Shown here: positions 71-62,905 of the stretch, piece after piece
Layout of the letters: each line of letters begins with the position of its first letter
Numbering within the stretch: the first letter of the stretch is position 1
Source of the DNA: an uncultured delta proteobacterium
GTDB taxonomy: Bacteria; Desulfobacterota; Syntrophia; Syntrophales; Smithellaceae
NCBI GenBank assembly: GCA_963851005.1
Contig: CAWKNI010000008.1
Span: 155,199 to 219,198 of the forward strand
DNA: 64,000 nucleotides
Direction of reading: 5' to 3'
The notes under the pieces: generated by a model
The model's input: only the letters and a program-made list of their open reading frames with translations
Database searches by the model: none
What the model was told of the DNA's origin: nothing
Made by a program: the position numbers and the translations under genes

Positions 71-130
71 TACTGCCTTGACATACAATGCCAAACTTCT
101 TATGTCTCCTTATGTGAGAAATAACATCTT

Positions 131-274
131 ATACCATTTCTAAATCAAAGATGATATTGAGGCGGCTAGGCGGAGGCAACGAGACGTATTATACACGCGT
201 GACCTTCAGGTTATACGTTGAGGAGGCCGACAACAACGCCAACAAAAATAGCGCTTTGATTTAGAATTGGAATT
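131..274. repeat. A-type long-hairpin intergenic repeat, copy A1 (extra central insert)
   Basis: ataccatttctaaatcaaag...acgtattatac..tacgttgaggaggccgacaac..gccaacaaaaatagcgctttgatttagaattgg; same unit at 5386-5504 and 34947-35072; outer arms are reverse complements. Confidence 0.9.
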
Positions 275-325
275 ATTTAAGAAAAGTGATTTTACCTTGG
301 AACATATTCAACAGGAGCAAAACAT

Positions 326-4038: not shown

Positions 4039-4165
4039 AATTAATTAAGTGGGATTAAAAAAGCCTCCAGATTTTGACTAATTATTGAATCGATTATGTT
4101 GCACTTTTCTTCCACAGAAATTGAATTATTGGAAAAATACGGGACTACCCCCAGCAATATTGCCA

Positions 4166-5029: not shown

Positions 5030-5267
5030 TTAATGCCTGATTATCTAAAGTCAGATCGGCAACGATATGTTTTAGCCGCCGGTTCTCTTCTTCAAGTGCC
5101 CTCAACTTCCTGGCATCGCTTACGGTCATTCCTCCATACTTGGCCTTCCAGTTGTAATATGTTGCGTCGCTGATTCCATGTTTGCGGCATACATCCATTA
5201 CCTTCATCCCTGTTTCCGCTTCCTGCAAAATACCTATAATCTGCTCCTCCGTAAATCGCTTCTTCAT
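5004..5267 (-). CDS. IS3-family transposase OrfA (HTH)
   Basis: 87 aa, MKKRFTEEQIIGILQEAE...GISDATYYNWKAKYGGM, typical IS3/IS911 OrfA with leucine-zipper tail. Confidence 0.9.
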   Translation of the reverse strand: MKKRFTEEQIIGILQEAETGMKVMDVCRKHGISDATYYNWKAKYGGMTVSDARKLRALEEENRRLKHIVADLTLDNQALKAVIEKKF

Positions 5268-5385
5268 CTGTGCCTCCTTTAAAGTGTTTTTTTATTCTAC
5301 ACTCTAATTACTTCTGGCACAACTTGCAGGGGGAATTCCCATACACCCCCCTATAAATAGATCATTTATATTCTTATACCATTTC

Positions 5386-5504
5386 TAAATCAAAGATGAT
5401 ATTGAGGCGGCTAGGCGGAGGCGACGAGACGTATTATACATACGTTGAGGAGGCCGACAACGACGCCAACAAAAATAGCGCTTTGATTTAGAATTGGAAT
5501 TATT
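5386..5504. repeat. A-type long-hairpin repeat, copy A2
   Basis: Near-identical to 34947-35072; sits directly beside the IS3 copy 1 right end. Confidence 0.9.
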
Positions 5505-22082: not shown

Positions 22083-22107
22083 GGGACTACCCCCAGCAAT
22101 ATTGCCA

Positions 22108-22971
22108 CTATGAATTAGAGTTTTCCAGCAAAATATCTTCTTTTTGTGCAAATTCCTTCGGCGTGAGAAAATCCAGCGTGCTGTGAGGCCGGTTTTCATT
22201 GTAATCTATCCGCCAGTCTTCAATTACTTTTCTTGCATGTTCAATGCTTCTAAACCAGTTTACGTTCAGACACTCTTCTCTGAACCTCGCATTAAAACTT
22301 TCCATAAATGCATTATCAACCGGTTTCCCAGGTCTGATAAAGTGCAGTTTCACTTTCTGACGGTAGGCCCACTCATCCATTGCGTTGCTGATAAACTCGG
22401 GACCATTATCTACTATAATATTCTCCGGCAGCCCATGCATCAATGATGCTTCGCTCAACAATGAAGTCACTCGCCTGCCTCCTATGGATCGGTCCACCTC
22501 TATTCTGTGGCATTCCTTTGTAAAAGTATCAATGATCGGCAGTATTCTTATTTTCATCCCGCTGCCCAGTGAATCATGCAGGAAATCCAGTCCCCATAAC
22601 TCATTCCGCTTCTTAGCTCTTGGTATCGCTACCCTTGCATATGATGCTCTCTTCTTCCGCCTGCGTATGGTTAATGACAACCTTTCTTCTTTGTAAATCC
22701 GCTCTGTACGTTTATGATTTATTACTAATCCTTCCCGTTTTGCTATGGCATGAAACATCTGGCAACCGGATCGTCGCCTCTGCTCAGCAAGTTCCCTTAA
22801 TCGCTTTCTCAACGCAGCGTCTTTGTCCGCTTTTGCCTCATACCGCAACGTGTCTCTGCTTAATCCTATCAACCTGCATGATCGCCTTATGCTCAACCCA
22901 AAGCTCTTTATTATAAATTCGACAGCTTCCCTACGAACTCTGGGCTTAAAACTTTTTTTCGATGACCGCCT
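22108..22971 (-). CDS. IS3-family transposase OrfB, copy 2
   Basis: Identical protein to 4166-4954. Confidence 0.85.
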   Translation of the reverse strand, partial: RRSSKKSFKPRVRREAVEFIIKSFGLSIRRSCRLIGLSRDTLRYEAKADKDAALRKRLRELAEQRRRSGCQMFHAIAKREGLVINHKRTERIYKEERLSLTIRRRKKRASYARVAIPRAKKRNELWGLDFLHDSLGSGMKIRILPIIDTFTKECHRIEVDRSIGGRRVTSLLSEASLMHGLPENIIVDNGPEFISNAMDEWAYRQKVKLHFIRPGKPVDNAFMESFNARFREECLNVNWFRSIEHARKVIEDWRIDYNENRPHSTLDFLTPKEFAQKEDILLENSNS

Positions 22972-23209
22972 TTAATGCCTGATTATCTAAAGTCAGATCG
23001 GCAACAATATGTTTTAGCCGCCGGTTCTCTTCTTCAAGTGCCCTCAACTTCCTGGCATCGCTTACGGTCATTCCTCCATACTTGGCCTTCCAGTTGTAAT
23101 ATGTTGCGTCGCTGATTCCATGTTTGCGGCATACATCCATTACCTTCATCCCTGTTTCCGCTTCCTGCAAAATACCTATAATCTGCTCCTCCGTAAATCG
23201 CTTCTTCAT
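22946..23209 (-). CDS. IS3-family transposase OrfA, copy 2
   Basis: Identical protein to 5004-5267. Confidence 0.9.
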   Translation of the reverse strand: MKKRFTEEQIIGILQEAETGMKVMDVCRKHGISDATYYNWKAKYGGMTVSDARKLRALEEENRRLKHIVADLTLDNQALKAVIEKKF

Positions 23210-23316
23210 CTGTGCCTCCTTTAAAGTGTTTTTTTATTCTACACTCTAATTACTTCTGGCACAACTTGCAGGGGGAATTCCCAGTCCATCAACGCTATAG
23301 TATTCAAATTTTAAAA

Positions 23317-24664: not shown

Positions 24665-24788
24665 TACCATTTCGATTTCAAAGGATAACGCGGCGGTAAG
24701 GAGGAGGCTCCGCAGGCGTATTGCTAATACGTTGAGGAAGCCAACGACGCTGCCAACAAAGTTAGCCGAAGAAAGCGAATTGGTATTA
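24665..24788. repeat. B-type long-hairpin repeat (variant of A), copy B1
   Basis: taccatttcgatttcaaagg...ggctccgcaggcgtattgctaatacgttgaggaagccaacgacgctgccaacaaagttagcc...gcgaattggta; overlaps the stop codon of 24786-25625. Confidence 0.85.
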
Positions 24789-25625
24789 GTATTCCGGTGT
24801 CAACTTATCCAATTCCGCCAGAGAAAAGACGGGGCCGTCTTTGCACACGTATTTACTGCCTACATTGCAGCGTCCGCATTTGCCGATGCCGCATTTCATC
24901 CGCATTTCCAGAGAAGTGATAATATTTTCCTTGGAAAAACCCAAATCGAAAAATACCGGCAGGGTAAAACGGATCATTATGGGAGGCCCGCAGATCACAG
25001 CCACAGCGTTTTCCTTGCTGGGGGCGACTTCCTTGCATACGGCGGGCACAAAACCTTCTCTGCCTTTCCAAGTGGCATCACCCTTATCCACGGTTACATT
25101 CAAATTTAAATCGGTTCTCTTGCCCCATTCTATTAATTCATCCTTGTAAAGCAACAAGCCTGGATTTCGCGCGCCGTAAATAACGGTGATATTGCCGAAG
25201 CGTTTGCGGTTGTCGCCGTAAATCATATAATTTATCAGAGACCGCAGGGTCGTGAAAGCGAATCCGCCGCCTACAATAACGATATTCTTTCCCGCCAGAA
25301 ATTCCAGCGGCCAGGAATTGCCCAATGGACCACGGATACCCATTAGGGTGCCTTCTTCCATTTCATGAAGCGCTGAGGTTACCACGCCGGCTTTCTGTAC
25401 GGTAAATTCCACATAACCTTTCTGTGTCGGAGATGAGGCAATGCCGATGGGCGATTCGCCTTTGCCGTAAATGGAAAGTTCGCCGAACTGTCCGGGAATG
25501 TAGCTGTATTTTGCTTCGTCTTCCGGATGAACGAACTTAAAACGAAAAGTTTTGATGTCTTTGGTGTCGACCTCGGTAATGATTTTATCCACCACAACAG
25601 GATAAGGTATATACGGGTTTTGCAT
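24786..25625 (-). CDS. FlxA-like FAD/NAD(P)-binding [2Fe-2S] oxidoreductase, paralog 2
   Basis: 279 aa; long identical runs with 13696-14556 (GREGFVPAVCK, VAVICGPPIMI, LEMRMKCGIGKCGRCNVG). Confidence 0.8.
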   Translation of the reverse strand: MQNPYIPYPVVVDKIITEVDTKDIKTFRFKFVHPEDEAKYSYIPGQFGELSIYGKGESPIGIASSPTQKGYVEFTVQKAGVVTSALHEMEEGTLMGIRGPLGNSWPLEFLAGKNIVIVGGGFAFTTLRSLINYMIYGDNRKRFGNITVIYGARNPGLLLYKDELIEWGKRTDLNLNVTVDKGDATWKGREGFVPAVCKEVAPSKENAVAVICGPPIMIRFTLPVFFDLGFSKENIITSLEMRMKCGIGKCGRCNVGSKYVCKDGPVFSLAELDKLTPEY

Positions 25626-34318: not shown

Positions 34319-34918
34319 CTATTGAGTAGGAAGTGAACTTAAATGTTTTCCTAAAAACTGCCAGATATCATCCTTGCCCTTATGCGTTATTGCTGAAAAA
34401 AGGATAGGCTTTTTGTCAGTCGATACGTCGAGAGTTTTTTCAATCGCGCGTTTACGGGCAATAGCCTGATTGTTGGATAATTTATCAGCCTTGGTCAAAA
34501 TGTACAGATAAGGTATGCGGTAATGCGCAAGCCAGTCACGCAAAGACAAATCATCTTCACTGGGATCGCGCCGGATATCCAGAATTAAAACTACCAGACA
34601 AAGACTTTGCCTCTCCCGCAAATAGGCTTCAATCATATCACCCCAGTCTTTTTTCACCGACTGGGAAACTTTGGCGAAACCATAGCCGGGAAGATCAACA
34701 AAAGATATTTTTTCGTTAATCGTAAAAAAATTAATCAACTGCGTCCGGCCGGGAGTATTGCTCGTCTTCGCCAGATTCTTACGCCCGACAAGCGTGTTGA
34801 TCAAAGATGACTTGCCGACGTTGGAACGCCCAACAAAAGCGATCTCCGGCAATATCGCCGGCGGATACTGAGGCGGCCAAACGGCGCTTTTTACAAATTT
34901 CGCACTGGTAATTTTCAT
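34319..34918 (-). CDS. engB: Ribosome-biogenesis GTPase EngB/YsxC/YihA
   Basis: 199 aa; GRSNVGKSSLIN (G1), DLPGYG (G3), TKADK (G4). Confidence 0.9.
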   Translation of the reverse strand: MKITSAKFVKSAVWPPQYPPAILPEIAFVGRSNVGKSSLINTLVGRKNLAKTSNTPGRTQLINFFTINEKISFVDLPGYGFAKVSQSVKKDWGDMIEAYLRERQSLCLVVLILDIRRDPSEDDLSLRDWLAHYRIPYLYILTKADKLSNNQAIARKRAIEKTLDVSTDKKPILFSAITHKGKDDIWQFLGKHLSSLPTQ

Positions 34919-34946
34919 GTTTAGAAATAATCCTTGATTATGCTTT

Positions 34947-35072
34947 ATACCATTTCTAAATCAAAGATGATATTGAGGCGGCTAGGCGAAGGCGACGAGA
35001 CGTATTATACATACGTTGAGGAAGCCGACAACGACGCCAACAAAAATAGCGCTTTGATTTAGAATTGGTATT
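34947..35072. repeat. A-type long-hairpin repeat, copy A3
   Basis: Full unit ataccatttctaaatcaaag...ctttgatttagaattggtat; abuts the toxin gene stop. Confidence 0.9.
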
Positions 35073-35343
35073 AATAGGCATCTTTCCTCTTCACTATATC
35101 CATGATGAAAATCAATATTTGTTTTTCATCAATCTGATAAAACAAACGATATTCACCGATCCGATACCGGTATACATCTTTAAATTCACCTTTGAGTTTT
35201 TTGATATTCTTGCCAAAGAAAGGACTGATTCTTAGTTGAGGATAAACGTATGTCTTTATTTTATTATATATCTTACTGAATTCTTTTTTAGAAATGGAAC
35301 GCTGAAATGTTTCGGTCTCCGCAATTTCAAATCTATTTGACAA
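35071..35343 (-). CDS. RelE/ParE-family type II toxin
   Basis: 90 aa; ...KLKGEFKDVYRYRIGEYRLFYQIDE.QILIF..V.KRKDAY pattern; 11-nt overlap with the upstream antitoxin. Confidence 0.8.
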   Translation of the reverse strand: MSNRFEIAETETFQRSISKKEFSKIYNKIKTYVYPQLRISPFFGKNIKKLKGEFKDVYRYRIGEYRLFYQIDEKQILIFIMDIVKRKDAY

Positions 35344-35826: not shown

Positions 35827-35935
35827 TATACCATTTCGATTTCAAAGGGTAACGAGGAAGGAGGAGGCTCCGCAGGCGTATATAATAATACGTTGAGGAA
35901 GCCGACGACGCTGCTAACAAAGTTAGCCAAAGACC
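35827..35935. repeat. B-type repeat, copy B2 (3' arm replaced by another module)
   Basis: taccatttcgatttcaaaggg...ggctccgcaggcgtatataataatacgttgaggaagccgacgacgctgctaacaaagttagcc, then ggaagcgcatcccgcaggggagcgca (also at 40753-40780). Confidence 0.8.
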
Positions 35936-35986
35936 GGAAGCGCATCCCGCAGGGGAGCGCATAATAAATCAAATTCTACCTTACCG

Positions 35987-36015
35987 GTAATTACCACCTG
36001 CAAGGTGGTAATTAC
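35987..36015 (-). terminator. Hairpin downstream of the sigma-54 regulator gene
   Basis: 12-bp stem gtaattaccacc / ggtggtaattac with 5-nt loop, 22 nt past the stop at 36038; weak U-tract. Confidence 0.45.
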
Positions 36016-44010: not shown

Positions 44011-44020
44011 AAAACAGGTT

Positions 44021-44078
44021 ACGCGGGGAAGCCGACGACGACGCCAACAAAGATAGCGCTTTGATTTAAAGTGGTATA
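44021..44078. repeat. A-type repeat, 3' half only (A4)
   Basis: acgcggggaagccgacgacgacgccaacaaagatagcgctttgatttaaagtggtata. Confidence 0.7.
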
Positions 44079-44085
44079 AACAGGC

Positions 44086-44459
44086 TCTGGAGAAGATCGT
44101 AAGCCGAGTTCTGTCCCGCGCTTCGGTTACCCTACGTGCGGTGATGATCATTCATCTGGGACATCAGTTGCCTGCTGCCTCAAGCGACACTACCCGAGAA
44201 CATCAGGCGGGCCGCCCTTAAACGTTCTCCTATTTGGTCTTGCTCCGGATGGGGTTTACCATGCCTTTCCTGTCACCAGCAAAGCGGTGAGCTCTTACCT
44301 CGCCTTTTCACCCTTACCCGGCATTCGCCGGGCGGTATATTTTCTGTGGCACTTTCCTTAGGGTCGCCCCCAGTCGCCGTTAGCGACCATCCCGCCCTGT
44401 GGAGCTCGGACTTTCCTCCAGCAGATAAATTCTGCCGGCGATCATCTGATCTTCTCCGG
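44086..44459 (-). ncRNA. rnpB: RNase P RNA, bacterial type A
   Basis: Minus strand reads GGAGAAGAUC...GGAGGAAAGUCCGAGCUCC...GGAAAGUGCCACAGAAAAUAUACCGCC...GGGUAAGGGUGAAAAGG..GGUAAGAGCUCACC...GGUAAACCCCAUCCGGAGCAAGACCAAAUAGG...ACAGAACUCGGCUUACGAUCUUCUCC. All universal P4/J-region blocks are present and P1 pairs 5' GGAGAAGAUC with 3' GAUCUUCUCC. Confidence 0.95.
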
Positions 44460-48462: not shown

Positions 48463-48499
48463 AAAGTTAATTATGTCACAGTCTCATGCGCCGGGCTTC

Positions 48500-48538
48500 G
48501 CTGCCAACAAAAATAGCGCTTTGATTTAGAATTGGAAT
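48500..48538. repeat. A-type repeat, 3' fragment (A5)
   Basis: gctgccaacaaaaatagcgctttgatttagaattggaat. Confidence 0.7.
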
Positions 48539-50790: not shown

Positions 50791-50872
50791 GGAATTCCAA
50801 GTTAAATTCTATGGTCAGGCAGGATCGAAAATGGTCCTGCCTGATTTTTACCAATAGAGTATGCCTACTAAA

Positions 50873-52732
50873 TCAGCGGCATAATCCTCTAGTAGTTGCT
50901 ACTTTCAATAATTCACAATCCCTCAATTCACATGCTTTTCGCGCATCTCGACAACCGGAGATGTTATCGCCTTGAGTTAGATAAACATTACCCCTGTTCA
51001 AATAGGCATAGGAAAAGTCTGGGTTGATTTTGATTGCCCTGTCATAATCTTCAATCGCCTGCCTGTAATTGCCGAGGTGTTTATAGGTAACACCCCGGTT
51101 AATATACGCATCTGCATAACTCGGATCGATTTTGATTGCCCTGTCATAATCCTCAATCGCCTGCCCGTGATTGCCGAGGTCATCATAGACATTGCCCCTG
51201 TTATAGTAGGCCGTTGCATAGTGGGGATAAATTTTGATCGTCCTGTCATAATCTTCAATCGCCTGCCTGTAATTGCCGAGATCAGCATAGACAACACCCC
51301 TGTTATGATAAATGAACCAATTATTATCAGTAACTTTCAAAGTGTGATCATACAATGTAATGCTGTTCTGCCAGTACCCGACCTGTTGCCATGTAATAAT
51401 TGAAAGGCACAAAATGCTCAATACAGATGATGTCAAAAGTATTTCTTTCCGGTAGTTCCATTTTTTCAGGAGATCAGGAACACCCCATGCCACCACGATG
51501 AATAACCCTATCAGGGGAATATAAGTGTATCGGTCCGCCATGGCTTGAGCGCCGGCCTGCACTATGCCGATGACAGGCACAAGCGTACCCGCATACCATA
51601 GCCAACCTGTTGCTAAATAAGAGAATTTCTTTGCCCTCCAGATAACTACTACGGTTATAGCGATAAGGATGAATACCGATCCCAAAACTTGCCAGGACAG
51701 CAACAACCCTGGATAAGGATAAAGGACAGCGAGATTACTCGGCCAGATCATCTTCCCAATGTAAGCAGTATAGGAAATGAAGGCATTCCCAATATGAACA
51801 ACCGGTGGAAGATTTTCAATATATGTGAGGGTTACTGTACTTTGTGGGGATATGTATACGATACTTAAAAGCATTGCCAGGACAAAAAGGGGAACTTTTT
51901 CCCAGAGCAGAGGATAGATCAATGACCATTTATGTTCGGGATCGGCTGGTTTCTTTACTTCCAATGGTTCCTTTACCACCTGCTTTTTTGTAGATTTCTT
52001 TTTTTGTTTGTCAGAAGTCAGGAGCTTAGACACTTCAGGCTGAACTTTATGATCCGGTTTTATTTCCTGAAAACGATGCAGGGGCCAGTAATCCAGAAGC
52101 AGCAATACAAATGGGAGGGTTACCAGCATAGGTTTCGACATCAGGCCCAAGATAAAAAACAGAAGGACAAAGAAATATCTCCGAAATCCCGGATTTTCAA
52201 CATAATAACTGTACGCTCCCATGGTAAGCATCCAGAAGAAAGTGGAAAGAACATCCTTGCGCTCTGTTATCCAGGCAACAGACTCTACATGAAGGGGATG
52301 TATTGCAAACAGGGCGGCCACAAAGGCGCTTGGCCAGAGTTTCTTTGTCATCCGGCGTAATATAAGAAAAAGGAGTATGGTGTTCAGAACATGGAAAAGA
52401 AGATTTATCAGGTGATAACCGTGGGGATTAAGGCCAAAGATCTGATAGTCAAGCATTAATGACAGCCATGTTACTGGATGCCAATGGCCGCTTTTCTTCA
52501 TTAATTCAGAGGAAAAGGAAAAGGCTTGTCCTATACTATTCCAACTAAGACCGGATTGTACGTAAGCATTTTCATACACGTAGGCAGTATCATCAAGGGT
52601 GATAAAGCCGCAGTCCTTGAGGGACCAAAAGGTGATAACCGTGAGTATTGCCAAAGCCAGGCAAATCAAGACCGGCATCAAATTCTTCTGTTGGCTTGCT
52701 TCCGAGCTTAACGTTCCTTTTGAAGTCGTCAC
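50873..52732 (-). CDS. TMTC-like GT-C glycosyltransferase/TPR protein, paralog 2
   Basis: 619 aa, GTG start aligned to paralog ATGs; GFITLDD, HPLHVESVAWITERKD, 4 TPR units, tail GCRDARKACELRDCELLKVATTRGLCR. Confidence 0.7.
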   Translation of the reverse strand: MTTSKGTLSSEASQQKNLMPVLICLALAILTVITFWSLKDCGFITLDDTAYVYENAYVQSGLSWNSIGQAFSFSSELMKKSGHWHPVTWLSLMLDYQIFGLNPHGYHLINLLFHVLNTILLFLILRRMTKKLWPSAFVAALFAIHPLHVESVAWITERKDVLSTFFWMLTMGAYSYYVENPGFRRYFFVLLFFILGLMSKPMLVTLPFVLLLLDYWPLHRFQEIKPDHKVQPEVSKLLTSDKQKKKSTKKQVVKEPLEVKKPADPEHKWSLIYPLLWEKVPLFVLAMLLSIVYISPQSTVTLTYIENLPPVVHIGNAFISYTAYIGKMIWPSNLAVLYPYPGLLLSWQVLGSVFILIAITVVVIWRAKKFSYLATGWLWYAGTLVPVIGIVQAGAQAMADRYTYIPLIGLFIVVAWGVPDLLKKWNYRKEILLTSSVLSILCLSIITWQQVGYWQNSITLYDHTLKVTDNNWFIYHNRGVVYADLGNYRQAIEDYDRTIKIYPHYATAYYNRGNVYDDLGNHGQAIEDYDRAIKIDPSYADAYINRGVTYKHLGNYRQAIEDYDRAIKINPDFSYAYLNRGNVYLTQGDNISGCRDARKACELRDCELLKVATTRGLCR

Positions 52733-52779
52733 TGTTTCTTAGTCCTTCGTACACTCCAAATTCTGAAAACTTTTTAGAA

Positions 52780-52830
52780 GTGCTTACCACACATTAAGCT
52801 GGATTTCAGCAGTTTTTGATTATTTCTGAG
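52780..52830 (-). repeat. Conserved upstream module U4
   Basis: Minus strand aataatcaaaaactgctgaaatccagcttaatgtgtggtaagcac, then a conserved leader cttctaaaaagttttcagaatttgga. Confidence 0.7.
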
Positions 52831-53130
52831 TAATCAGTTTTATAATCCTCCATTAAATCAGCAATGCGACGCGAAACATTCTTTTGTCACCATAGAAATA
52901 GCCGTCTGTCAAAAGGATGTGGCAGTGCGGATTGAATCCGAGGACGCCGCCGAAGGTTTGACGGCAGTGACTGCGCCGGGGATTGGGTCATTTTCAGGCA
53001 CTGAATGCTAGAGAAACACTTTCAGTGATTATTTTCACTTTCTCTTGACATTTCAATACGGTGCGTATAGAAAAAAGCCTATTGATTTTTCGACTATATT
53101 CGCAAAAAAAAGAAAAAGTGGAGTAGACTT

Positions 53131-53670
53131 ATGAGATCATATGTTGTTATTTCCTCCATGGGTCCGGATCGTCCTGGTCTGGCCAAAGAAATCGCTGAAT
53201 TTTTTACCGCCCGGGGCATTAATATCGAACGGTCCCGCGGTTGTGTGTTGGGCAATGAATTCGGCATGATCATCCTCACATCGGGAAAGACTGACGACAT
53301 CGAGCGTCTGATTAAAGATTTGGACAGCCTACGCGAAAAAACAAAGCTGGAGATCTACGTTCGGAAAACCAAAGCGCCCAGCCATCGCGACGTTTTGCCG
53401 TCGATTCCCTACAAGCTCATTGCCACGTCCATTGATCATCCGGGGATCATCCATCAAATCTGCAAATCACTTCAACTGCGGGGAGTCAACATTGAAGACA
53501 TATCCACCAATGTGGATAATAATCCCTTTTCGGGAGCAAATGTGTTCCATATGGTCTGCTACTTTTCTCTGCCGCCGGCTGTTAAAATTATCGATCTTAA
53601 AAACGATTTTAACCGCATCAGCGATGAATATAATATTGATATCCGGTTTGAAGCTGTAATCAGTAAGTAG
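53131..53670 (+). CDS. Tandem ACT-domain protein (GcvR-like)
   Basis: 179 aa; two ACT units beginning VVISSMGPDRPGLAKEI and YKLIATSIDHPGIIHQI. Confidence 0.7.
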   Translation: MRSYVVISSMGPDRPGLAKEIAEFFTARGINIERSRGCVLGNEFGMIILTSGKTDDIERLIKDLDSLREKTKLEIYVRKTKAPSHRDVLPSIPYKLIATSIDHPGIIHQICKSLQLRGVNIEDISTNVDNNPFSGANVFHMVCYFSLPPAVKIIDLKNDFNRISDEYNIDIRFEAVISK

Positions 53671-53674
53671 CGCT

Positions 53675-55345
53675 ATGAAGAAAACCAAACAACACAACCC
53701 GGAAAAAAACCTGCGGTCCATTGTTGACATTGCCTCAACGCTCGGATTGATGGAAAATGATCTGGAATTATACGGCCGTTACAAGGCCAAAGTAAGGCTA
53801 GAAGTAATCCGGCGATTTCCACGCAGGAACAATTCATCTTTGATTCTTGTGTCGGCCATGACGCCGACCCCTGCCGGTGAAGGAAAGACCACCGTGTCCA
53901 TCGGGCTTGCGCAGGCTCTGGCTAAAATCGGCAAGTCCACCATCGCGGCTTTGAGGGAACCATCACTCGGGCCTGTTTTCGGCATCAAAGGCGGGGCCAC
54001 CGGTGGCGGACTTTCCCGCGTTCATCCGGTCGATGACATTAATCTCCATTTCACAAACGACTTCCCAGCAGTAGAAAGTGCGCACAATCTGCTTTCCGCC
54101 ATCGTTGACAATTCCATTTTTCACGGTAATCCTTTAAATATCGATCCGCGTAAAATCACCTGGCGTAGGGTTATAGACATGAATGACCGCTCGCTTCGGG
54201 ATATTGTTATTGGTCTGGGCGGTTCCACTAACGGAGTACCCCGGGAAACAGGATTTGATATTGTTCCCTCCAGTGAAATTATGGCAATTCTCTGCCTTTC
54301 ACGCTCCTATGAAGAATTGAAAGACAGGATACGCAAGATTCTGGTGAGTTATACTTATGACGACCATCCGGTGATTGCCGGCGACCTGAAGGTAGAAGGA
54401 GCGGTCACGGCACTCTTGAAATATGCGTTACTACCCAATCTTGTGCAGACCACCGAAGGCGTTCCGGCCGTTATACACGGCGGTCCATTCGCCAACATTG
54501 CCCAGGGTACCAACAGTATCATGGGCACGGACCTGGCGCTTCGTCTGGCGGATTATGTGGTAACCGAAGCCGGATTTGGCTTTGATCTCGGCGCAGAGAA
54601 GTATTTCGACATCGTTGCGCCCTACGGCAATTTTAATCCCCGAATTGTTATTTTGGTTGCCACTGTTCGTGCGTTGAAATATCACGCGGGCATTGCGCGA
54701 GAAGAACTGAACGATCCCAACCCCCATGCGGCCGTTCTGGGAATGGCAAATCTGCGCAAGCACTATGAAAATATAGACAAATTCAACGTCCCCTGCATTG
54801 TTGCTTTAAACCGGTTTCCTTCTGACGCGGATGAAGAAATAAAGGTGGTTGTGGAAGCTGCTGAAAATGAAGGTATGAACATCGCCCCGGTGGATATCTT
54901 TAGTCTGGGAGGCGAGGGCGGTTTGGAGCTTGCAGAAAAGACAGTCCGGTTGATAGCCGAAGCCAAAGGAACATTTAAGCCGCTCTATGACTGGAAACTG
55001 CCGGTGGAAGATAAAATATTTAAAATTGCGAGCGAAATCTACGGCGCTGTTTCCATTGATTACCAATCGCAGGCTAGACGCAATCTCGATATGATCAAAA
55101 AAATTGGATACGATAAACTGCCGGTCTGCATTGCCAAAACCCAGCAATCGCTGTCCGACAACCCGAGCCTTTTGGGTCTTCCCAGCAACTTTGTCGTTAC
55201 TGTGCGGGAAATTAAAATCGCTGCCGGCGCGGGCTTTTTGGTCCCCATTACCGGAGAAATTCTCCGGATGCCCGGCCTTTCCAAAGAGCCCGCCGCCTAC
55301 AATATTAATATTGACGATACCGGAAATATAACGGGAATTTTATAG
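53675..55345 (+). CDS. fhs: Formate-tetrahydrofolate ligase
   Basis: 556 aa; TPTPAGEGKTT P-loop, GIKGGATGGG, PNLVQT.EG.PA.IHGGPFANIA blocks. Confidence 0.95.
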   Translation: MKKTKQHNPEKNLRSIVDIASTLGLMENDLELYGRYKAKVRLEVIRRFPRRNNSSLILVSAMTPTPAGEGKTTVSIGLAQALAKIGKSTIAALREPSLGPVFGIKGGATGGGLSRVHPVDDINLHFTNDFPAVESAHNLLSAIVDNSIFHGNPLNIDPRKITWRRVIDMNDRSLRDIVIGLGGSTNGVPRETGFDIVPSSEIMAILCLSRSYEELKDRIRKILVSYTYDDHPVIAGDLKVEGAVTALLKYALLPNLVQTTEGVPAVIHGGPFANIAQGTNSIMGTDLALRLADYVVTEAGFGFDLGAEKYFDIVAPYGNFNPRIVILVATVRALKYHAGIAREELNDPNPHAAVLGMANLRKHYENIDKFNVPCIVALNRFPSDADEEIKVVVEAAENEGMNIAPVDIFSLGGEGGLELAEKTVRLIAEAKGTFKPLYDWKLPVEDKIFKIASEIYGAVSIDYQSQARRNLDMIKKIGYDKLPVCIAKTQQSLSDNPSLLGLPSNFVVTVREIKIAAGAGFLVPITGEILRMPGLSKEPAAYNINIDDTGNITGIL

Positions 55346-55600
55346 CTTTTAAAATCGTTTTAAAATCTTGACAGCATTTTCTCGTTTAATGCATCAGGCC
55401 TAAAAAAAGAAGCTTTTGATAAGAACTTCCTTTTATACCAATTTGCAGTCAACAGTATACCGAGACGGCAGTGAAACTCGAATTACAGTTACGCAGTAAA
55501 CTTGTAATTCGTTAGTTGTAATGAGCCTCAAAATTCAGGAACAAAATGAACTGAATTTTGTAAGCCGAATTATCCAATGGCTTTTGGCTATTGGAAACTG

Positions 55601-55732
55601 TCCCAATTTTGTGGGGCAAGGAAGAAGCGACGCAGGCGTATTATTACATACGTCGAGGAGTCGATGACCCCGGCCTTCGCCGGGGCAGGCTGTGCCGACA
55701 AAGGTAAACGAATGAATGCGAATTGGTATTAG
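55601..55732. repeat. B-type repeat, divergent copy B3
   Basis: gcgacgcaggcgtattattacatacgtcgaggag...gccgacaaaggtaaacgaatgaatgcgaattggtattag. Confidence 0.6.
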
Positions 55733-55832
55733 TGGTTTGCAATATAGGAAGCGTGGTCTTATGTGTCAATGAAATCTTGTGGTGTGAATTGTTTGTTTCC
55801 GATTTAATGAATTATAGAGTATGCCTCCTAAA

Positions 55833-57797
55833 TTAGCGGCATAATCCTCTGCCTTGAGCGGCTTCTAATAATTTACAATTCCCCAATTCACATGCTTTTC
55901 GCGCGTCGCGACAGCCGGAAATATTATCACTCTGAGTTAGATAAACACGAGCCCTGTTGTTGTAAGCGTCGGCATAATCAGATTTCAAGCGGATGGCTTC
56001 ATTGAAATCCTCTAAGGCTTTTTGATAAATATCCATCTGGGTATAGACGATTCCTCTATTGTTGTAAGCTTTTATATAATAAGGATTAAGGACGATCGCC
56101 CTGTTAAGATCCTCAATAGCCAGTTGATACTGACCATGTTTGGCATAAAGAGTCCCCCTGTCGTAATAGATTCGGTCAGAATCAACTTTCAGGCGGATTG
56201 CCTCGCCATAGTCTTCAATCGCCTGCCTGTAATTGTCGAGGCCACCATAGGCATTACCCCTGTTAGTATAGGCCTCTGCATAATTTGGTTTGATTTCGAT
56301 CGCCCTGTTTAAGTCCTCAATCGCCTGCCTATAATTGCCGAGACCATTATAGGCAAAACCCCGGTTAGTATAAGCGAGCCAATTATTATCAGTAACTTTC
56401 AAAGTGTGATCATACAATGTAAAGTTATTCTGCCAGCACCCGATCTGTGTCCATGTTTTAATTGATAGGCACAAAACGATCAATATAGATATTGTCAAAA
56501 GTATTTCTTTCCGGTAGTTCCATTTTTTCAAGAGATCCGGAACACCCCATGCCACCACGATGAATAACCCTATCAGGGGGATATAAGTGTATCGGTCCGC
56601 CATGGCTTGAGCGCCGGCCTGCACTATACCGATGACAGGCACAAGCGTGCCTATATACCATAGCCAACCCATTGCCAAATAAGGAGATCTCTTAACCCTC
56701 CGGATAACTACTAAGGTTATAGCGATAAGGAGGAATACCGACCCCAAAACCTGCCAGGGAATCAAGAACTTTGGATAAGGATAAAAGACGGCAAGATTAT
56801 TCGGCCAGATCATCTTTCCAATGTAAGCGATATAGGAAATGAAGGCATTCCCAATACAAACACCCAGAGGAGGGACTTCAAAATATGAGACAGCTCCTGC
56901 AATTTGTGGGGCGACTAATGTTATGATACTTGAAAAGATTGACAGGATAAAAAGGGGAACTTTTTCCCAGAGTAGAGGATAGATCAATGACCATTTGTAT
57001 TCGAGATCGGCTGGTTTCTTTACTTCCAATATTTCCTTTACCGTTTGCTTACTTTTAAACTTCTTTTTTTGTTTATCAGAAGTAACTTGTTTAGACACTT
57101 CAGGCTGCATTTTGTGGTCCGGTGTTGTTTCCTGAAAACGCTGCAAGGGCCAGTAATCCAGAAGCAGCAGTACAAAAGGAAGGGTTACCAACATGGGTTT
57201 TGACATCAGGCCCAGGACAAAAAACAGAAGGACAAAGAAATATCTCCGAAATCCCGGATGTTCAACATAATAACTGTACGCTCCCATGGTGAGCATAAAG
57301 AAGAAAGTAGAAAGAACATCCTTGCGCTCTACTATCCACGCAACAGATTCTGCATGGAGGGGATGTATTGCAAACAGACAGGCTACAAAGGCACTTGGCC
57401 AGAGTGTCTTTGTCATCCGGCGTAATATAAGAAAAAGGAGTATGGTGTTCATAACATGGAAGAGAAGATTAATCAGGTGATAACCGGAAGGGTTGAGGCC
57501 AAAGATTTGATAATCAAGCATCAATGACAGCCATGTTACCGGATGCCAATGACCGCTTTCATTCACTAATTCAGAAGAAAAGAAAAAGGCTTGTCCTATA
57601 CTATGCCAATTCAGGCCTGATTGTACATAAGCATTTTCATACACGTAGACATTATCATCAAGGTTGATAAAGCCGCAGTCTTTGAGTGACCAAAAGGTGA
57701 TAACCGTGAGTATCGCCAGAGCCAGGCAAATCAAGACCGGAAGCAAAATCTTATGTTGGGTTGCTTTTGAGCTTAACATTCCTTGTGAAGTTGGCAT
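55833..57797 (-). CDS. TMTC-like GT-C glycosyltransferase/TPR protein, paralog 3 (6 TPR units)
   Basis: 654 aa; GFINLDD, HPLHAESVAWIVERKD, tail GCRDARKACELGNCKLLEAAQGRGLCR. Confidence 0.7.
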   Translation of the reverse strand: MPTSQGMLSSKATQHKILLPVLICLALAILTVITFWSLKDCGFINLDDNVYVYENAYVQSGLNWHSIGQAFFFSSELVNESGHWHPVTWLSLMLDYQIFGLNPSGYHLINLLFHVMNTILLFLILRRMTKTLWPSAFVACLFAIHPLHAESVAWIVERKDVLSTFFFMLTMGAYSYYVEHPGFRRYFFVLLFFVLGLMSKPMLVTLPFVLLLLDYWPLQRFQETTPDHKMQPEVSKQVTSDKQKKKFKSKQTVKEILEVKKPADLEYKWSLIYPLLWEKVPLFILSIFSSIITLVAPQIAGAVSYFEVPPLGVCIGNAFISYIAYIGKMIWPNNLAVFYPYPKFLIPWQVLGSVFLLIAITLVVIRRVKRSPYLAMGWLWYIGTLVPVIGIVQAGAQAMADRYTYIPLIGLFIVVAWGVPDLLKKWNYRKEILLTISILIVLCLSIKTWTQIGCWQNNFTLYDHTLKVTDNNWLAYTNRGFAYNGLGNYRQAIEDLNRAIEIKPNYAEAYTNRGNAYGGLDNYRQAIEDYGEAIRLKVDSDRIYYDRGTLYAKHGQYQLAIEDLNRAIVLNPYYIKAYNNRGIVYTQMDIYQKALEDFNEAIRLKSDYADAYNNRARVYLTQSDNISGCRDARKACELGNCKLLEAAQGRGLCR

Positions 57798-57846
57798 TTT
57801 TTCTTCGTCTTTCGTTCAATCCAAGTTCTGAAAACTTTTCGGAAGT

Positions 57847-57900
57847 GTTTACCACACATTCAGTTGGAGTTCAGCCATTTTTTGATTATTATCGATTGAA
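57847..57900 (-). repeat. Conserved upstream module U5
   Basis: Minus strand ttcaatcgataataatcaaaaaatggctgaactccaactgaatgtgtggtaaac; abutted by the IS91-like element. Confidence 0.7.
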
Positions 57901-58076
57901 GAACTAAACCGCTACGCGGTAGCCATCTAATCGTTTTTTCATCGGATCACAACAAACCAGTCCTTATAAATTCAACAAGGTATTTTAGCGCTTGTTGATC
58001 AAGCGGAATCCCCATACAGCTTCCTTTGCTATACCGCCTTCATGAACAGGCGGAATTTATAATCAAAGGAGATTGT

Positions 58077-58925
58077 ATGATGGGAAAGTTAAGAGATCAG
58101 ATGCTTGTAGATTTACAGTTGAGCGGAGCAAAGCCGAGGACGCAAAAGACCTACCTGCGGGAAGTTGAGAACCTGACAAAACACTTTAACCGGTCCCCGG
58201 AGGAACTGGGAGAAGCCGAACTCAAGGAGTACATGCTTTATCTTATCAATGAGCGACATTTGTCTGAAGGGACATTCCGGTTTTATGTAGCGGGCCTTAA
58301 ATTTTTCTACAGAACGACGCTGAAACGCGACTGGCCAGTGGAGAAGATCAGGCATCCCCGGAGCAAGAGAAAACTACCGGTTGTTCTGGATTTATCGGAA
58401 GTGGAATCCCTTTTTTCAGTCACGAGGAACCTCAAGCACAAGGTGATCCTGATGATGACGTATTCTTCGGGACTGAGGGTAAACGAAACCGCCCGCCTTA
58501 AGTTGACTGATATCGATAGCAAACGGATGACGGTCAAGGTAAATGATGGCAAGGGCGGCAAAGATCGCTACTCCATTTTGTCCAAGACGACCCTTGAGCA
58601 TTTGCGGCAATACTGGAGAAAATATCGCCCCACGGAGTGGTTGTTTGAAGGGCAAAAGAAGGATGATCACATCACCGTCCATTCGATTCAGTTGATGTTT
58701 TATGCTGCAAGAAAGCGTGCCGGAATCATCAAGGCGGCCAGCGTGCATACGTTAAGACATAGTTTTGCCACCCACCTGATTGAAGCGGGAACGAGCCTCC
58801 ACCATGTTCAACTGCTTCTTGGCCACAGATCCCCGACGACGACCACCATCTATCTGCATGTCAGCCGGTTGAATCTGTCTCAGGTCATTTCTCCTCTCGA
58901 TAAAGCAACACAACAGATTTCGTAA
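58077..58925 (+). CDS. Tyrosine recombinase (phage-integrase family)
   Basis: ATG 58077 after aaaggag; SAM-like N-domain; catalytic RVNE..., HTLRHSFATHL, LLGHRS...T..YLH (R-H-R-Y set). Confidence 0.85.
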   Translation: MMGKLRDQMLVDLQLSGAKPRTQKTYLREVENLTKHFNRSPEELGEAELKEYMLYLINERHLSEGTFRFYVAGLKFFYRTTLKRDWPVEKIRHPRSKRKLPVVLDLSEVESLFSVTRNLKHKVILMMTYSSGLRVNETARLKLTDIDSKRMTVKVNDGKGGKDRYSILSKTTLEHLRQYWRKYRPTEWLFEGQKKDDHITVHSIQLMFYAARKRAGIIKAASVHTLRHSFATHLIEAGTSLHHVQLLLGHRSPTTTTIYLHVSRLNLSQVISPLDKATQQIS

Positions 58926-58930
58926 GCCGG

Positions 58931-60124
58931 ATGCGAACATCTGGAGGTTTTGAAGTAGCGGACATTTTTCGTCAACAGGGTACTGCTTATAGATCATCCC
59001 ATCGGTTGCCCCGCAATCATCTGCGGGTCATGCACGCCATTGAGCTCTGCAGAACCTCTGTCCTGGGCGGTCATAAGGATAAGTGCGATAACTGCGGCCA
59101 TCTGGAGATATCTTATAACTCCTGCCGGAACCGGCACTGTCCCAAATGTCAGACCCTGGCGAAGGAAAAATGGATCGAGGCTCGCGGTGAAGATCTTCTG
59201 CCAATTGAATATTTTCATGTGGTCTTCACCATACCCTCGGAACTTAATCTCCTGGTATCGATGAACCAAAAGGTCATGTACGATCTTCTTTTCCGTTCGG
59301 TTTCCGAAACGGTCATTGAACTTGCCAACGACCCGAAACATCTCGGCGCAAAAATAGGCGTCATTAGTATTCTGCACACCTGGGGGCAGAATCTTATGGA
59401 TCATCCCCACATCCACTGTATTGTCACCGGGGGTGGGCTTTCCTCTGATGGAAACCGCTGGGTGTCTTGCCGGAAAGGTTTCTTCCTCCCCGTAAGGGTC
59501 TTGTCGGCGTTGTTCAGCGGGAAGTTTCTGGATTACCTCAAGCATTGTTTCAAAAACGGTGTTCTGGTATTCGATGGTACGATCCGTCATCTCAAGGTAC
59601 CCGGCAACTTCAATCTTTTCAGGAAACAGCTCTATGAAAAGAAATGGGTTGTTTACTGCAAACCGCCATTTGGCGGTCCCGAAGGTGTTCTCAAGTATCT
59701 CGGCCGATATACCCACCGGATCGCCATCAGTAACAACCGCATCCTTTCCAACCGGGATGGCAGGGTCTCCTTCTTATGGCGGGATTATGCCGACGATAAC
59801 CGTCAAAAGACCATGACGCTCAAGACAGATGAATTTATCAGAAGGTTCCTTCTTCACGTATTACCCGAACGCTATGTGCGGATACGCCACGTCGGTCTCC
59901 TGGCAAACAGAAACCGCCAAGATAATATCGCATTATGCCATACGATGATGGGTGGTGTTAAAAAGGCAACAAAAGAAAAGAGGCGGGAAACCTGGCAGGA
60001 GCAGTTGCTCAGAATTACCGGAATCGATGTCACGGTCTGTCCCTTCTGCCAGAAAGGCAAAATGTGCAGAATAGAACGGCTACTTCCCGTCAGGTGCAAC
60101 AGTCCGCCGGAGTTACTCAGATGA
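58931..60124 (+). CDS. IS91-family HUH/Y2 rolling-circle transposase
   Basis: 397 aa; N-terminal Zn-binding CDNCGH...CRNRHCPKC, HTWGQNLMDHPHIHCIV (HUH), YLGRYTHRIAISNNRI (Y2). Confidence 0.85.
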   Translation: MRTSGGFEVADIFRQQGTAYRSSHRLPRNHLRVMHAIELCRTSVLGGHKDKCDNCGHLEISYNSCRNRHCPKCQTLAKEKWIEARGEDLLPIEYFHVVFTIPSELNLLVSMNQKVMYDLLFRSVSETVIELANDPKHLGAKIGVISILHTWGQNLMDHPHIHCIVTGGGLSSDGNRWVSCRKGFFLPVRVLSALFSGKFLDYLKHCFKNGVLVFDGTIRHLKVPGNFNLFRKQLYEKKWVVYCKPPFGGPEGVLKYLGRYTHRIAISNNRILSNRDGRVSFLWRDYADDNRQKTMTLKTDEFIRRFLLHVLPERYVRIRHVGLLANRNRQDNIALCHTMMGGVKKATKEKRRETWQEQLLRITGIDVTVCPFCQKGKMCRIERLLPVRCNSPPELLR

Positions 60125-60912
60125 GGTTCACGCACAATGTAAAAATCATATCTTCGGTTTCCTGCGAAAAAAATACTCCTTTTCGCCTTGGTGTCCTATT
60201 GTCCAAAATCAAATCTACGCTCAGAAGCTTATCAAGAAGCGCTCAATCTATAACGTTCCCGGCTCACATTACGGATCAGGTTCAACTCAAAACAGACATC
60301 CGTCATCGTGTTCTATCTGTCAGGCAGTACAAAAGCAGCGCAAACACCCCATTGAAACCCCATAGCTCACGACACGCGGCTTAGTTCTTCAAGCGTCAAT
60401 CCAAAATTGAACCAACTCCTCGAACCTCATCGCACTCCTTCGCTTTATCAACTTTGGATTGACGCTTATTTCGAAACATACATGACAGTATTCTGTCACA
60501 AAGGAGAATGAAAATATTGACCTATCTGTAGCTTTTAGTATATTCATGACTATCGATATAATAGAATAACGAATGATTCAACAGGGTAAAGGTCGAACCT
60601 TACTGGTGGTTACAACCCCGTGGTTGAAACTGACATGGCCAGGCGTAAGAACAAAAGAATGTTGCCACGAGCACGCAGATGAAATTTTTACACTCTGCCC
60701 GGCCTCCTGTTGATCATATAGCTCTTTAAAAAAGTTAACAATATTAGTTTCTTTTAGGCACATTTTCAGATGAAGGTTGTGTGAATTGGGAAAATAAGAA
60801 AAACAACATTACAGGAAAAAGTGCTTGCTGAGTTTACCTACAACTATTCAGTGATGGGCAGTTGTCAGACCTTATTGCCATTCATAATGAATGATAGATT
60901 ATGCCTCCTAAA

Positions 60913-62763: not shown

Positions 62764-62810
62764 TGTATCTTTCTCTTTCATTCAATCCAAATTCTAAAAA
62801 GTTTTTAGAA

Positions 62811-62878
62811 GTATTTACCATATATTAAGTAATAGTTCAGCAATATTGTATGTCAATTAAATATTGATTATCGATTGT
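62811..62878 (-). repeat. Conserved upstream module U6
   Basis: Minus strand ttacaatcgataatcaat...attgctgaactattacttaatatatggtaaatac, then the leader cttctaaaaactttttagaatttgga. Confidence 0.65.
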
Positions 62879-62905
62879 AATGAATGATAGATTATGCCTA
62901 CTAAA

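What the first reader, a model, noticed from the sequence alone, without database searches (positions are those of the whole stretch)
34947..35072. A/B family of ~120-145-nt long-hairpin intergenic repeats with compensatory arm changes (at least 8 copies in 64 kb)
Copies:
- A-type: 131-274, 5386-5504, 34947-35072, plus 3' fragments at 44021-44078 and 48500-48538.
- B-type: 24665-24788, 35827-35935, 55601-55732.

All copies share the core cgtat..atacgttgagga(a/g)gccgac(a/g)acg..gc(c/t)aacaaa.

The outer arms differ between types yet stay complementary. A-type pairs ccatttctaaatcaaag with ctttgatttagaattgg. B-type pairs ccatttcgatttcaaagg with ccgaagaaagcgaattgg.

This covariation argues for selection on a folded DNA or RNA structure rather than simple decay. 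Copies sit at gene ends, touching the stops of 24786-25625 and of the toxin gene. One lies beside an IS3 insertion.

Possible roles are REP/BIME-like elements mobilised by a RAYT-type transposase, a MITE, or a family of terminator/sRNA modules.
Basis: seen in the sequence. Interest (0 to 1): 0.6.

Follow-up and report, generated by a model that had tools for sequence, protein, structure and literature searches.

The report
Small hairpin jumping element of Smithella
The repeats are copies of an apparently undescribed 123-base non-coding jumping element (a MITE) of Smithella-type syntrophic bacteria. Its two ends really do change in matched pairs, but it is an ordinary kind of bacterial repeat, and the enzyme that moves it was not found.

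Summary
All eight window copies exist, within a few bases of the stated coordinates, except that the last copy is only part of a 293-nt composite. The genome (3.42 Mb, Smithella-like) holds 141 matches to the family.

The element is a MITE:
- The unit is 123 nt, TACC…GGTA, and folds into a long imperfect hairpin.
- It is flanked by a 3-bp direct duplication: 51 of 75 copies, almost always TAA/TAA or TTA/TTA.
- Filled and empty orthologous sites exist. One copy sits in frame inside DNA polymerase I in two species and is absent from the 10 same-genus orthologues aligned.

The compensatory arm changes are confirmed: 95.4% of cells pair against 84.8% in shuffles, and 17 pairs change on both sides. 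They do not show RNA function, because matched transposon ends or palindrome self-correction predict the same pattern.

Evidence against the other readings:
- No orientation bias relative to genes.
- No terminator T-tract and no Rfam match.
- Not REP/RAYT-like.
- Not a fragment of any IS in the genome.

No cognate transposase was found in this genome or the relatives searched.

Two odd features remain: a conserved inner core beside variable, co-varying stems, and a central hairpin shared with a second repeat family. Verdict: new member of a known kind, of modest interest.

The parts
129..275 (+). A-type copy, 141 nt (132-272), with an 18-nt module (CACGCGTGACCTTCAGGT) in the apical loop. Flanked by TTA/TTA.
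   Evidence: nhmmer hit C8:155330-155472. Sequence and flanks. TSD table.
5374..5502 (+). A-type copy, 123 nt (5377-5499), flanked by TTA/TTA. It lies 26 nt from an IS3-family copy (4141-5350).
   Evidence: IS boundaries.
24665..24788 (+). B-type copy, 121 nt (24665-24785). The right flank TTA (24786-24788) is the TAA stop of the minus-strand oxidoreductase ORF 24786-25625. The left flank is AAA, so the duplication has decayed.
34945..35073 (+). The copy named in the finding: A-type, 123 nt (34948-35070), flanked by TTA/TTA. The right TTA is the stop of the ParE-like toxin ORF (35071-35343, minus strand). The GTPase gene 34319-34918 lies to the left.
35829..35933 (+). B-type copy lacking its 3' end (model positions 1-109). 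It is joined to another repeat (CCGGAAGCGCATCCCGCAGGGGAGCGCAT...). The same junction recurs at two other places in the genome.
44020..44077 (+). 3' half-copy (model positions 64-123), 7 nt from the RNase P RNA gene (44085-44457, minus strand).
48498..48538 (+). 3' terminal fragment of about 41 nt.
   Evidence: (family D19).
55433..55731 (+). C-type composite copy, 293 nt (55436-55728), flanked by TTA/TTA. It carries the 70-nt arm module, a further insert and the 27-nt GC-hairpin module.
   Evidence: (C8:210634-210926).

Best explanation
These repeats are copies of a non-autonomous DNA transposon (a MITE) that is specific to Smithella and related Syntrophales.

**Anatomy**
- The basic unit is 123 nt. 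It starts with TACC and ends with GGTA.
- About 25 nt at each end form inverted repeats.
- The middle is a conserved, purine-rich core around a small hairpin (CGTAT-N5-ATACG).

**How it moves (inferred)**
- A transposase supplied in trans cuts at the TACC/GGTA ends and inserts the element at a TWA (TTA/TAA) trinucleotide.
- That trinucleotide is duplicated on both sides.
- Element plus duplication add 126 nt, so the reading frame is kept. This allowed one copy to persist inside polA.
- TAA is a target, so some copies land on stop codons and leave the stop intact.

**History**
- The family has diversified into at least three subtypes (A, B, C) and has picked up optional hairpin modules.
- The A-type copies in this genome are 93% alike on average, which indicates fairly recent amplification.

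**The co-varying arms**
The matched changes in the two arms most likely reflect a need for both ends to stay mutually complementary. Two mechanisms fit: recognition of paired ends or a hairpin by the mobilising enzyme, or copy-correction between the arms of a quasi-palindrome.

**Shown versus inferred**
- Shown: copy number, ends, duplication, filled/empty sites, covariation, lack of orientation bias.
- Inferred: the type of transposase (a DDE enzyme of the IS5 / PIF-Harbinger kind, judged only from the 3-bp TWA duplication) and the cause of the covariation.
For: **Copy number and folding**
- 141 genomic matches, 89 full length.
- The fold is far more stable than shuffled sequence.

**Target duplication**
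- 51 of 75 scorable copies have identical 3-bp flanks: 27 TAA/TAA, 20 TTA/TTA, 3 TCA/TCA, 1 TGA/TGA.
- Only 3 are mixed TAA/TTA. That excludes the flanks being a mere extension of the palindrome.

**Filled versus empty sites**
- A copy in a Syntrophaceae MAG (L003) has an empty counterpart at own C7:1367604, with matching flanks.
- A C-type copy lies in frame inside polA in this genome and in relative G015, giving a 930-aa ORF.
- Sixteen other same-genus polA matches are unsplit, in open frames of 851-894 aa, mostly 886. The 10 that were aligned lack the 44-aa insert.

**Location**
- Convergent intergenic regions hold 37 of 106 classifiable copies. They make up only 14% of intergenic regions.
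- The duplicated triplet coincides with a stop codon in 10 of 83 copies, against about 5% expected (p = 0.009).

**Covariation.**

**Distribution**
- The core 23-mer occurs in more than 107 loci of Smithella, Smithellaceae and Syntrophaceae MAGs.
- A B-type query matches 37 of 151 genomes and 20 of 63 genera of the order.

**Negative database results**
- No Rfam family matches.
- No match in E. coli genomes or plasmids.
- No paper on Smithella mentions such an element.
Against: **No cognate transposase was found.**
- No long element in this genome is bounded by these ends. TIR pairs more than 400 bp apart enclose ordinary host genes.
- The IS families present all have unrelated termini: IS21, two rve/IS481-like, IS110, IS3, IS4-like, one IS200 (by inspection, 47, 48, 75).
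- The only IS5-type element found in a relative has GAGAC ends.
- IS427/IS1031-type domains occur in only 2 of 61 genomes of the family.
- Two candidate long pairs in relatives hold rimP/nusA-type host genes.

**The conservation pattern is the reverse of the textbook MITE.** The inner core is more conserved than arm positions 6-13. The central hairpin is shared with a second 123-nt family whose ends are unrelated. Both features hint at a constraint beyond transposase binding.

**Some sampling is biased.** The copies from other species were collected with the core motif itself, so their core conservation is partly ascertainment.
Confidence: 0.85

Rival explanations
1. The element is primarily a structured RNA module (sRNA, mRNA-stability element or terminator). 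It is selected for its fold on the + strand, and mobility is secondary or extinct.
For: - The stems covary strongly.
- The + strand folds better than the - strand: -47 against -39.5 kcal/mol.
- Several conserved G-U pairs (columns 56:79, 57:78, 33:97, 21:114) would be A-C mismatches on the other strand.
- The inner core is conserved across families of the order.
- ERIC and Correia elements, which look similar, are known to affect mRNA processing (review PMC10969869).
Against: - There is no orientation bias relative to flanking genes: 47 same versus 53 opposite downstream of stops, and 31 versus 23 between tandem genes.
- There is no T-tract or terminator-like site.
- There is no Rfam match.
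- Copies are inserted in both orientations at TTA/TAA.
- One copy sits inside a protein-coding gene.
- Covariation is equally expected for transposon ends.
Confidence: 0.08
2. The compensatory changes arise without any selection. Intramolecular template switching (quasi-palindrome correction) during replication copies a mutation from one arm to the other.
For: - The element is a long imperfect palindrome, which is the substrate for this well-established mutational mechanism (established knowledge, not tested here).
- Many different arm variants exist, each with its matched partner.
- The changes are concentrated in the contiguous outer helix.
Against: - It does not explain why the extreme 4-5 nt and the core stay constant while positions 6-13 vary.
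- It does not explain why B and C types keep fixed internal mismatches (AAA opposite GAA) in many copies.
- It concerns only the covariation and is compatible with the MITE reading.
Confidence: 0.25
3. The elements are REP/BIME-type repeats mobilised by a RAYT (Y1/HUH) transposase, or IS200/IS605-derived palindromic elements.
For: - One Y1_Tnp gene exists in the genome, and such genes are common in relatives.
- The optional 27-nt GC-hairpin module inside some copies loosely resembles the GC hairpins that flank that gene.
Against: - The element has a 3-bp target duplication and terminal inverted repeats, which HUH transposition does not produce.
- It is 123 nt, not 20-40 nt.
- The Y1 gene is flanked by its own unrelated hairpins, not by these elements. 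The nearest copy is 1.7 kb away.
Confidence: 0.02
4. The copies are fragments or solo ends of a larger known insertion sequence.
For: Half-copies and truncated copies exist.
Against: - No long element is bounded by these ends.
- Self-BLAST repeat families longer than 500 bp have different termini.
- There is no match in the plasmid or E. coli collections.
Confidence: 0.03

Closest known systems
ERIC / IRU (enterobacterial repetitive intergenic consensus, about 127 bp)
   Same: - Similar size.
- A long imperfect hairpin.
- Tens to hundreds of intergenic copies.
- Size variants made by internal inserts.
- Occasional intragenic copies.
- As far as I know, no transposase has been identified.
   Different: - No sequence similarity: blastn against 5,426 E. 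coli genomes found nothing.
- A different phylum.
- A clear 3-bp TWA duplication here.
Correia elements of Neisseria (MITE, about 100-160 bp)
   Same: - Terminal inverted repeats, a short AT-type target duplication and subtypes.
- As far as I recall, the transposase is unknown.
- Correia carries promoter-like sequences. Here there is a 10/12 sigma-70-like match on the minus strand across the apical loop.
   Different: - Correia duplicates TA (from memory); this element duplicates TWA.
- No sequence relation was seen. That comparison rests on the Correia consensus as I remember it and was not run.
Rickettsia palindromic elements (RPE)
   Same: An in-frame insertion of a palindromic repeat into an essential protein gene that stays open. 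Here it adds 44 aa to the 3'-5' exonuclease-like region of PolA in two species.
   Different: - Only one clear internal in-frame case was seen here.
- Most copies are intergenic.
- RPEs are described as unusually often intragenic (PMC10969869).
Tourist-like MITEs / PIF-Harbinger and IS5-family (IS1031/IS427-type) elements
   Same: A 3-bp TWA/TNA target duplication. That property of these families is from memory and was not tested here.
   Different: - The ends (TACC...) do not resemble the GAG/GGC-type ends I recall for IS5 elements.
- Such transposases are nearly absent from the family: PF13586 in 2 of 61 genomes, PF13359 in 3 of 26 relatives.
Chunjie MITE of Geobacter uraniireducens
   Same: A MITE of a former deltaproteobacterium, forming a very stable hairpin, with size variants and partial copies.
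   Different: Chunjie is 178-235 bp with 21-bp TIRs and a 9-bp duplication (PMC3184786).

Membership tests
MITE (miniature inverted-repeat transposable element) | Short (under about 400 bp), non-coding, multi-copy | tested here: met
   - The unit is 123 nt, with variants of 105-293 nt.
- There are 141 matches in 3.42 Mb.
- Only incidental open frames are present.
MITE (miniature inverted-repeat transposable element) | Terminal inverted repeats | tested here: met
   The outer helix (columns 1-27 with 108-133) is 95% paired across 59 copies.
MITE (miniature inverted-repeat transposable element) | Target-site duplication | tested here: met
   - 51 of 75 copies have identical 3-bp flanks, 47 of them TAA or TTA.
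- Only 3 copies show mixed TAA/TTA flanks.
MITE (miniature inverted-repeat transposable element) | Presence/absence at orthologous sites | tested here: met
   - L003 is filled where own C7:1367604 is empty.
- polA is filled in G000 and G015.
- The 10 same-genus polA orthologues aligned lack the insert. Six further ones give unsplit matches.
MITE (miniature inverted-repeat transposable element) | Ends shared with an autonomous IS that supplies the transposase | tested here: not met
   - No IS with these ends was found in the genome or the searched relatives.
- Several accepted MITEs (ERIC and Correia, as far as I know) also lack a known parent, so this does not exclude membership.
REP/BIME with RAYT | 20-40-nt palindromes, no target duplication, flanking a single-copy RAYT gene | tested here: not met
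   - The element is 123 nt and has a duplication.
- The one Y1 gene is IS200-like and is flanked by its own unrelated hairpins.
ERIC | Sequence similarity to the ERIC consensus | tested here: not met
   There was no blastn match (word size 11, E up to 10) in 20,395 E. coli records, a species reported to carry about 30 ERIC copies (copy number from PMC10969869).
Intrinsic terminator | GC-rich stem followed by a T-run | tested here: not met
   No terminator-like site lies in 34850-35150. The 3' arm is followed by the TWA duplication and then by unrelated sequence.
Known RNA family (Rfam) | Match to a covariance model | tested here: not met
   At gathering threshold only RNase P matched in the window. 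The composite copy gave nothing better than E = 1.8.

The most novel reading that the evidence does not exclude
The element may not be an ordinary TIR-recognised MITE. On this reading it is moved, or kept, through a structure-specific mechanism.

Observations that suggest this:
- Only the outer 4-5 nt and a conserved purine-rich core are constant.
- The stem between them is free to change as long as it pairs.
- The same central hairpin (GAGGCGTAT-N5-ATACGTTGAG) sits in a second 123-nt repeat family with unrelated ends.
- No matching transposase exists in any genome searched.

Two consequences could follow. Either an unrecognised enzyme reads a hairpin, or a host factor binds the core and the core has been co-opted (for example as an RNA or DNA protein-binding site).
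Probability: 0.1. Interest if true: 0.7.

Novelty: new member of a known kind. Interest (0 to 1): 0.35.

Why it matters
**Practical value**
- These elements take up about 0.5% of the genome.
- They mark gene ends and explain odd features that a reader meets again and again in this genome: hairpins touching stop codons, 'brackets' around genes, and ORFs that run into repeats.
- A profile of the family would improve the annotation of Smithellaceae MAGs, and filled/empty sites could serve as strain markers.

**Biological questions**
- The family offers a clean natural data set of about 140 copies per genome, across dozens of species. It could be used to ask why the arms of hairpin repeats covary.
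- It is another case of an abundant MITE without a known transposase.
- It shows that a palindromic repeat can survive in frame inside an essential polymerase gene.

None of this overturns current understanding.

Tried and rejected
**ERIC.** My first guess, from the look of the sequence, was an enterobacterial ERIC-like repeat. It was rejected: the organism is Smithella-like and E. coli genomes give no match.

**Parent IS in this genome**
- TIR pairs 200-6000 bp apart are composites of about 215-290 nt, or enclose host genes.
- All self-BLAST repeat families longer than 500 bp have other ends.
- The PF01609 hits are an IS4-like element with CA(T/C)TACTGTCCGG ends.

**Parent IS in relatives**
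- PF13359 hits in G015 are an IS5 element with GAGAC ends.
- PF13586 is nearly absent.
- A TIR pattern scan of G074 and G058 gave two candidate pairs of about 1.2 kb, which hold ordinary genes.

**Orientation bias.** I did not reproduce it. My gene calls are a crude longest-ORF set, which should be adequate for strand.

**Stop-codon targeting.** The enrichment is only modest: 12% against 5%, p = 0.009.

**Empty site for the named copy.** The test failed. The right flank is a mobile ParE toxin-antitoxin module that lies on other contigs in most relatives. In G007 the spacing suggests that the site is also filled.

Full report

Yes. The core motif occurs five times in the window, with none expected by chance. 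The generic repeat finder recovers the family as D15, D16 and D19.

A profile built from the six listed copies finds all eight window copies. Genome-wide it finds 141 matches, 89 of them full length. The genome has 9 contigs, 3.42 Mb and 43.7% G+C; the window is C8:155199-219198.

The copy at 34948-35070 folds into one long interrupted hairpin at -47 kcal/mol. Shuffles give -24.5 +/- 3.2, so z = -7.1. The complementary strand gives -39.5.

The exception is the 'B' copy at 55601-55732. It is the right part of a 293-nt composite (55436-55728) whose ends belong to a third subtype.

**2. What organism?**

All loci shown are from Smithella, Smithellaceae, Syntrophaceae or 'delta proteobacterium' MAGs, apart from one labelled only Pseudomonadota. 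My first impression of an enterobacterial ERIC-like repeat was therefore wrong. A sensitive blastn against all complete E. coli genomes found nothing.

**3. Anatomy**

Printing the 89 full copies with flanks shows a sharply bounded unit, TACC...GGTA, usually 123 nt.

The three bases outside each end are identical in 51 of 75 scorable copies:
- 27 TAA/TAA
- 20 TTA/TTA
- 3 TCA/TCA
- 1 TGA/TGA
- only 3 mixed TAA/TTA

If the flanks merely extended the palindrome, the mixed class would dominate. This is therefore a 3-bp target-site duplication at TWA.

There are three arm subtypes:
- A: TTCTAAATCAAAG
- B: TTCG(A/C)TTTCAAAGG
- C: AATTTGCAGTCAAAAG

Mean pairwise identity is 93% within A in this genome and 80% within B.

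There are three optional modules:
- an 18-nt insert in the apical loop;
- a 27-nt GC hairpin replacing part of the 3' arm;
- a 70-nt double hairpin in the 5' arm.

The first two occur only inside these elements. The third also occurs in another repeat family.

**4. Mobility**

Flanks of copies from other species were blasted against this genome. This gave both shared (filled) sites and empty sites.

At C7:1367604 this genome has ...ATCATC-TAA-ACCTTA.... A Syntrophaceae MAG (L003) has ...CATC-TTA-[element]-TTA-AACCTTA... at the same place.

A cleaner case turned up by accident. One C-type copy lies inside a 930-aa ORF, which is DNA polymerase I by its sequence.

The closest relative, G015, has the same insert. 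Its neighbouring query segment matches at 92% identity. Sixteen other genomes of the genus give an unsplit match, in open frames of 851-894 aa, mostly 886.

The protein alignment shows a 44-aa insert (...IDGD-TKSQSKVYRGGEEEATQLYSTIRRGADDDANKGRRMNATW-YDVML...). The 10 same-genus orthologues aligned have ...S-GE-DLQL... at this position.

Element plus duplication add 126 nt. The C-type sequence is open in two of its six frames, so the frame is preserved.

**5. Where the copies sit**

I used a crude longest-ORF gene set. On that basis:
- Copies are over-represented between convergent genes: 37 of 106, against 14% of intergenic regions.
- Copies are under-represented between tandem genes.
- Orientation relative to neighbouring genes is random: 31 versus 23 between tandem genes, 47 versus 53 downstream of stops, 35 versus 22 upstream of starts (p = 0.11).
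- The duplicated triplet is itself a stop codon in 10 of 83 copies, against about 5% expected (p = 0.009).

An insertion at a TAA stop regenerates the stop.

There is no terminator-like T-run. There is one 10/12 promoter-like match on the minus strand across the apical loop.

**6. Covariation**

The test used an alignment of 59 distinct copies, three from the window and 56 from other genomes. I derived the structure from the single-sequence fold. Results:
- 95.4% of cells pair, against 84.8 +/- 0.4% in shuffles.
- 17 pairs have changes on both sides, against 12.3 in shuffles.
- 205 cells have double changes, against 81 in shuffles.
- 0 of 500 shuffles reach any observed value.
- Sliding the partner by 1-3 columns gives 25-41% pairing.

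The signal lies in the outer 24-pair helix, where 15 pairs covary. The inner helices are nearly invariant and so carry no information.

Several conserved G-U pairs exist only on the + strand. That is weak evidence that, if a single strand matters, it is this one.

Caveats:
- The structure came from one of the sequences.
- The foreign copies were collected with the core motif.
- Copies are related by descent.

The inference to 'selection on a folded RNA/DNA' is not forced. The same pattern would come from both ends having to match for one transposase, or from template-switch correction in quasi-palindromes.

What is unusual for a MITE is the distribution of conservation. Arm positions 6-13 vary freely. 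The extreme ends and the inner core are conserved, and the core is recognisable in 37 of 151 genomes and 20 of 63 genera of the order. In distant families often only positions about 14-101 match.

**7. The missing transposase**

In this genome:
- No long element is bounded by these ends.
- The multi-copy IS families have unrelated termini. By their translations they are IS21, two rve-type, several IS110-type, IS3 and IS4-like.
- The single Y1 transposase is an ordinary IS200 with its own flanking hairpins.

In relatives:
- An IS5-type element in G015 has GAGAC ends.
- IS427/IS1031-type domains are almost absent from the family.
- Two candidate TIR pairs in other genomes enclose host genes.

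The attribution to an IS5 / PIF-Harbinger-like DDE enzyme therefore rests only on the 3-bp TWA duplication. It is an inference.

**8. Comparison with what is known**

- No Rfam family matches.
- No plasmid matches.
- Searches of the held literature found no paper linking Smithella to MITEs. The one Smithellaceae comparative-genomics paper that came up does not mention such repeats.
- Functionally and structurally the closest analogues are ERIC, Correia and RPE.
- Chunjie of Geobacter differs in size and has a 9-bp duplication.

The element meets the defining MITE features except for a known parent IS. It fails the REP/RAYT, ERIC, terminator and Rfam tests.

**9. Limits**

- Gene calls were my own simple ORF set.

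**10. Verdict**

This is a real, well-bounded and apparently undescribed MITE family, with confirmed co-varying arms. It is an ordinary kind of element, with a few unexplained details worth a note.

Noticed in passing
own genome C7:1829051-1829174 (outside the window); loci L147 and L153: A C-type copy is inserted in frame in the DNA polymerase I gene. It adds 44 aa in the 3'-5' exonuclease-like region. The ORF stays open in this genome and in relative G015 (930 aa). The 10 same-genus orthologues aligned lack the insert.
   Followed up: yes
own genome, e.g. C8:42238-42360, C1:27256-27379, C7:228821-228943 (outside the window): A second family, also about 123 nt, has unrelated ends (GGGCTGTTCAAAAATG...CAGCCC) and no obvious target duplication. 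It shares only the central hairpin GAGGCGTAT-N5-ATACGTTGAG with the family studied here. At least 6 full copies exist. Some relatives of this family also carry the 70-nt arm module.
   Followed up: partly
window 35915-36000, also C7:1122801 and C9:106243 regions: The same junction occurs at three places: a truncated B-type copy joined to another repeat (CCGGAAGCGCATCCCGCAGGGGAGCGCATAATAAAT...TACCTTACCGGTAATTACCACCTGCAAGGTGGTAATTACA). This suggests a composite unit that has itself been copied.
   Followed up: no
window 50854-63999: There are four paralogous minus-strand genes of about 620-650 aa. They carry arrays of 102-nt (34-aa) repeats and share 5' and 3' ends (repeat families D1-D12, D17, D20). 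They look like a tandemly expanded family of TPR/Sel1-like repeat proteins.
   Followed up: no
window 4141-5350 and 22083-23292: Two copies of an IS3-family element of about 1.2 kb are identical over at least 923 nt. Their ends are GGG(G)ACTACCCCCAGCAA..., unrelated to the hairpin element.
   Followed up: partly
own genome C7:2083358-2083810: There is a single IS200-type Y1 transposase (150 aa), flanked on both sides by the hairpin CCCCGCGGCTTGCCGCG(G/T)GGG. That hairpin loosely resembles the optional 27-nt GC-hairpin module (CCCCGGCCTTCGCCGGGG...) found inside 21 copies of the element.
   Followed up: no
window 35004-35031, minus strand: A sigma-70-like promoter match (TTGTCG, 16-nt spacer, TATAAT; 10 of 12) spans the apical loop of the A-type element and points towards its 5' arm.
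   Followed up: no
window 44085-44457, minus strand: An RNase P RNA gene (bacterial class A, 325.8 bits) has a half-copy of the element 7 nt from one end.
   Followed up: no
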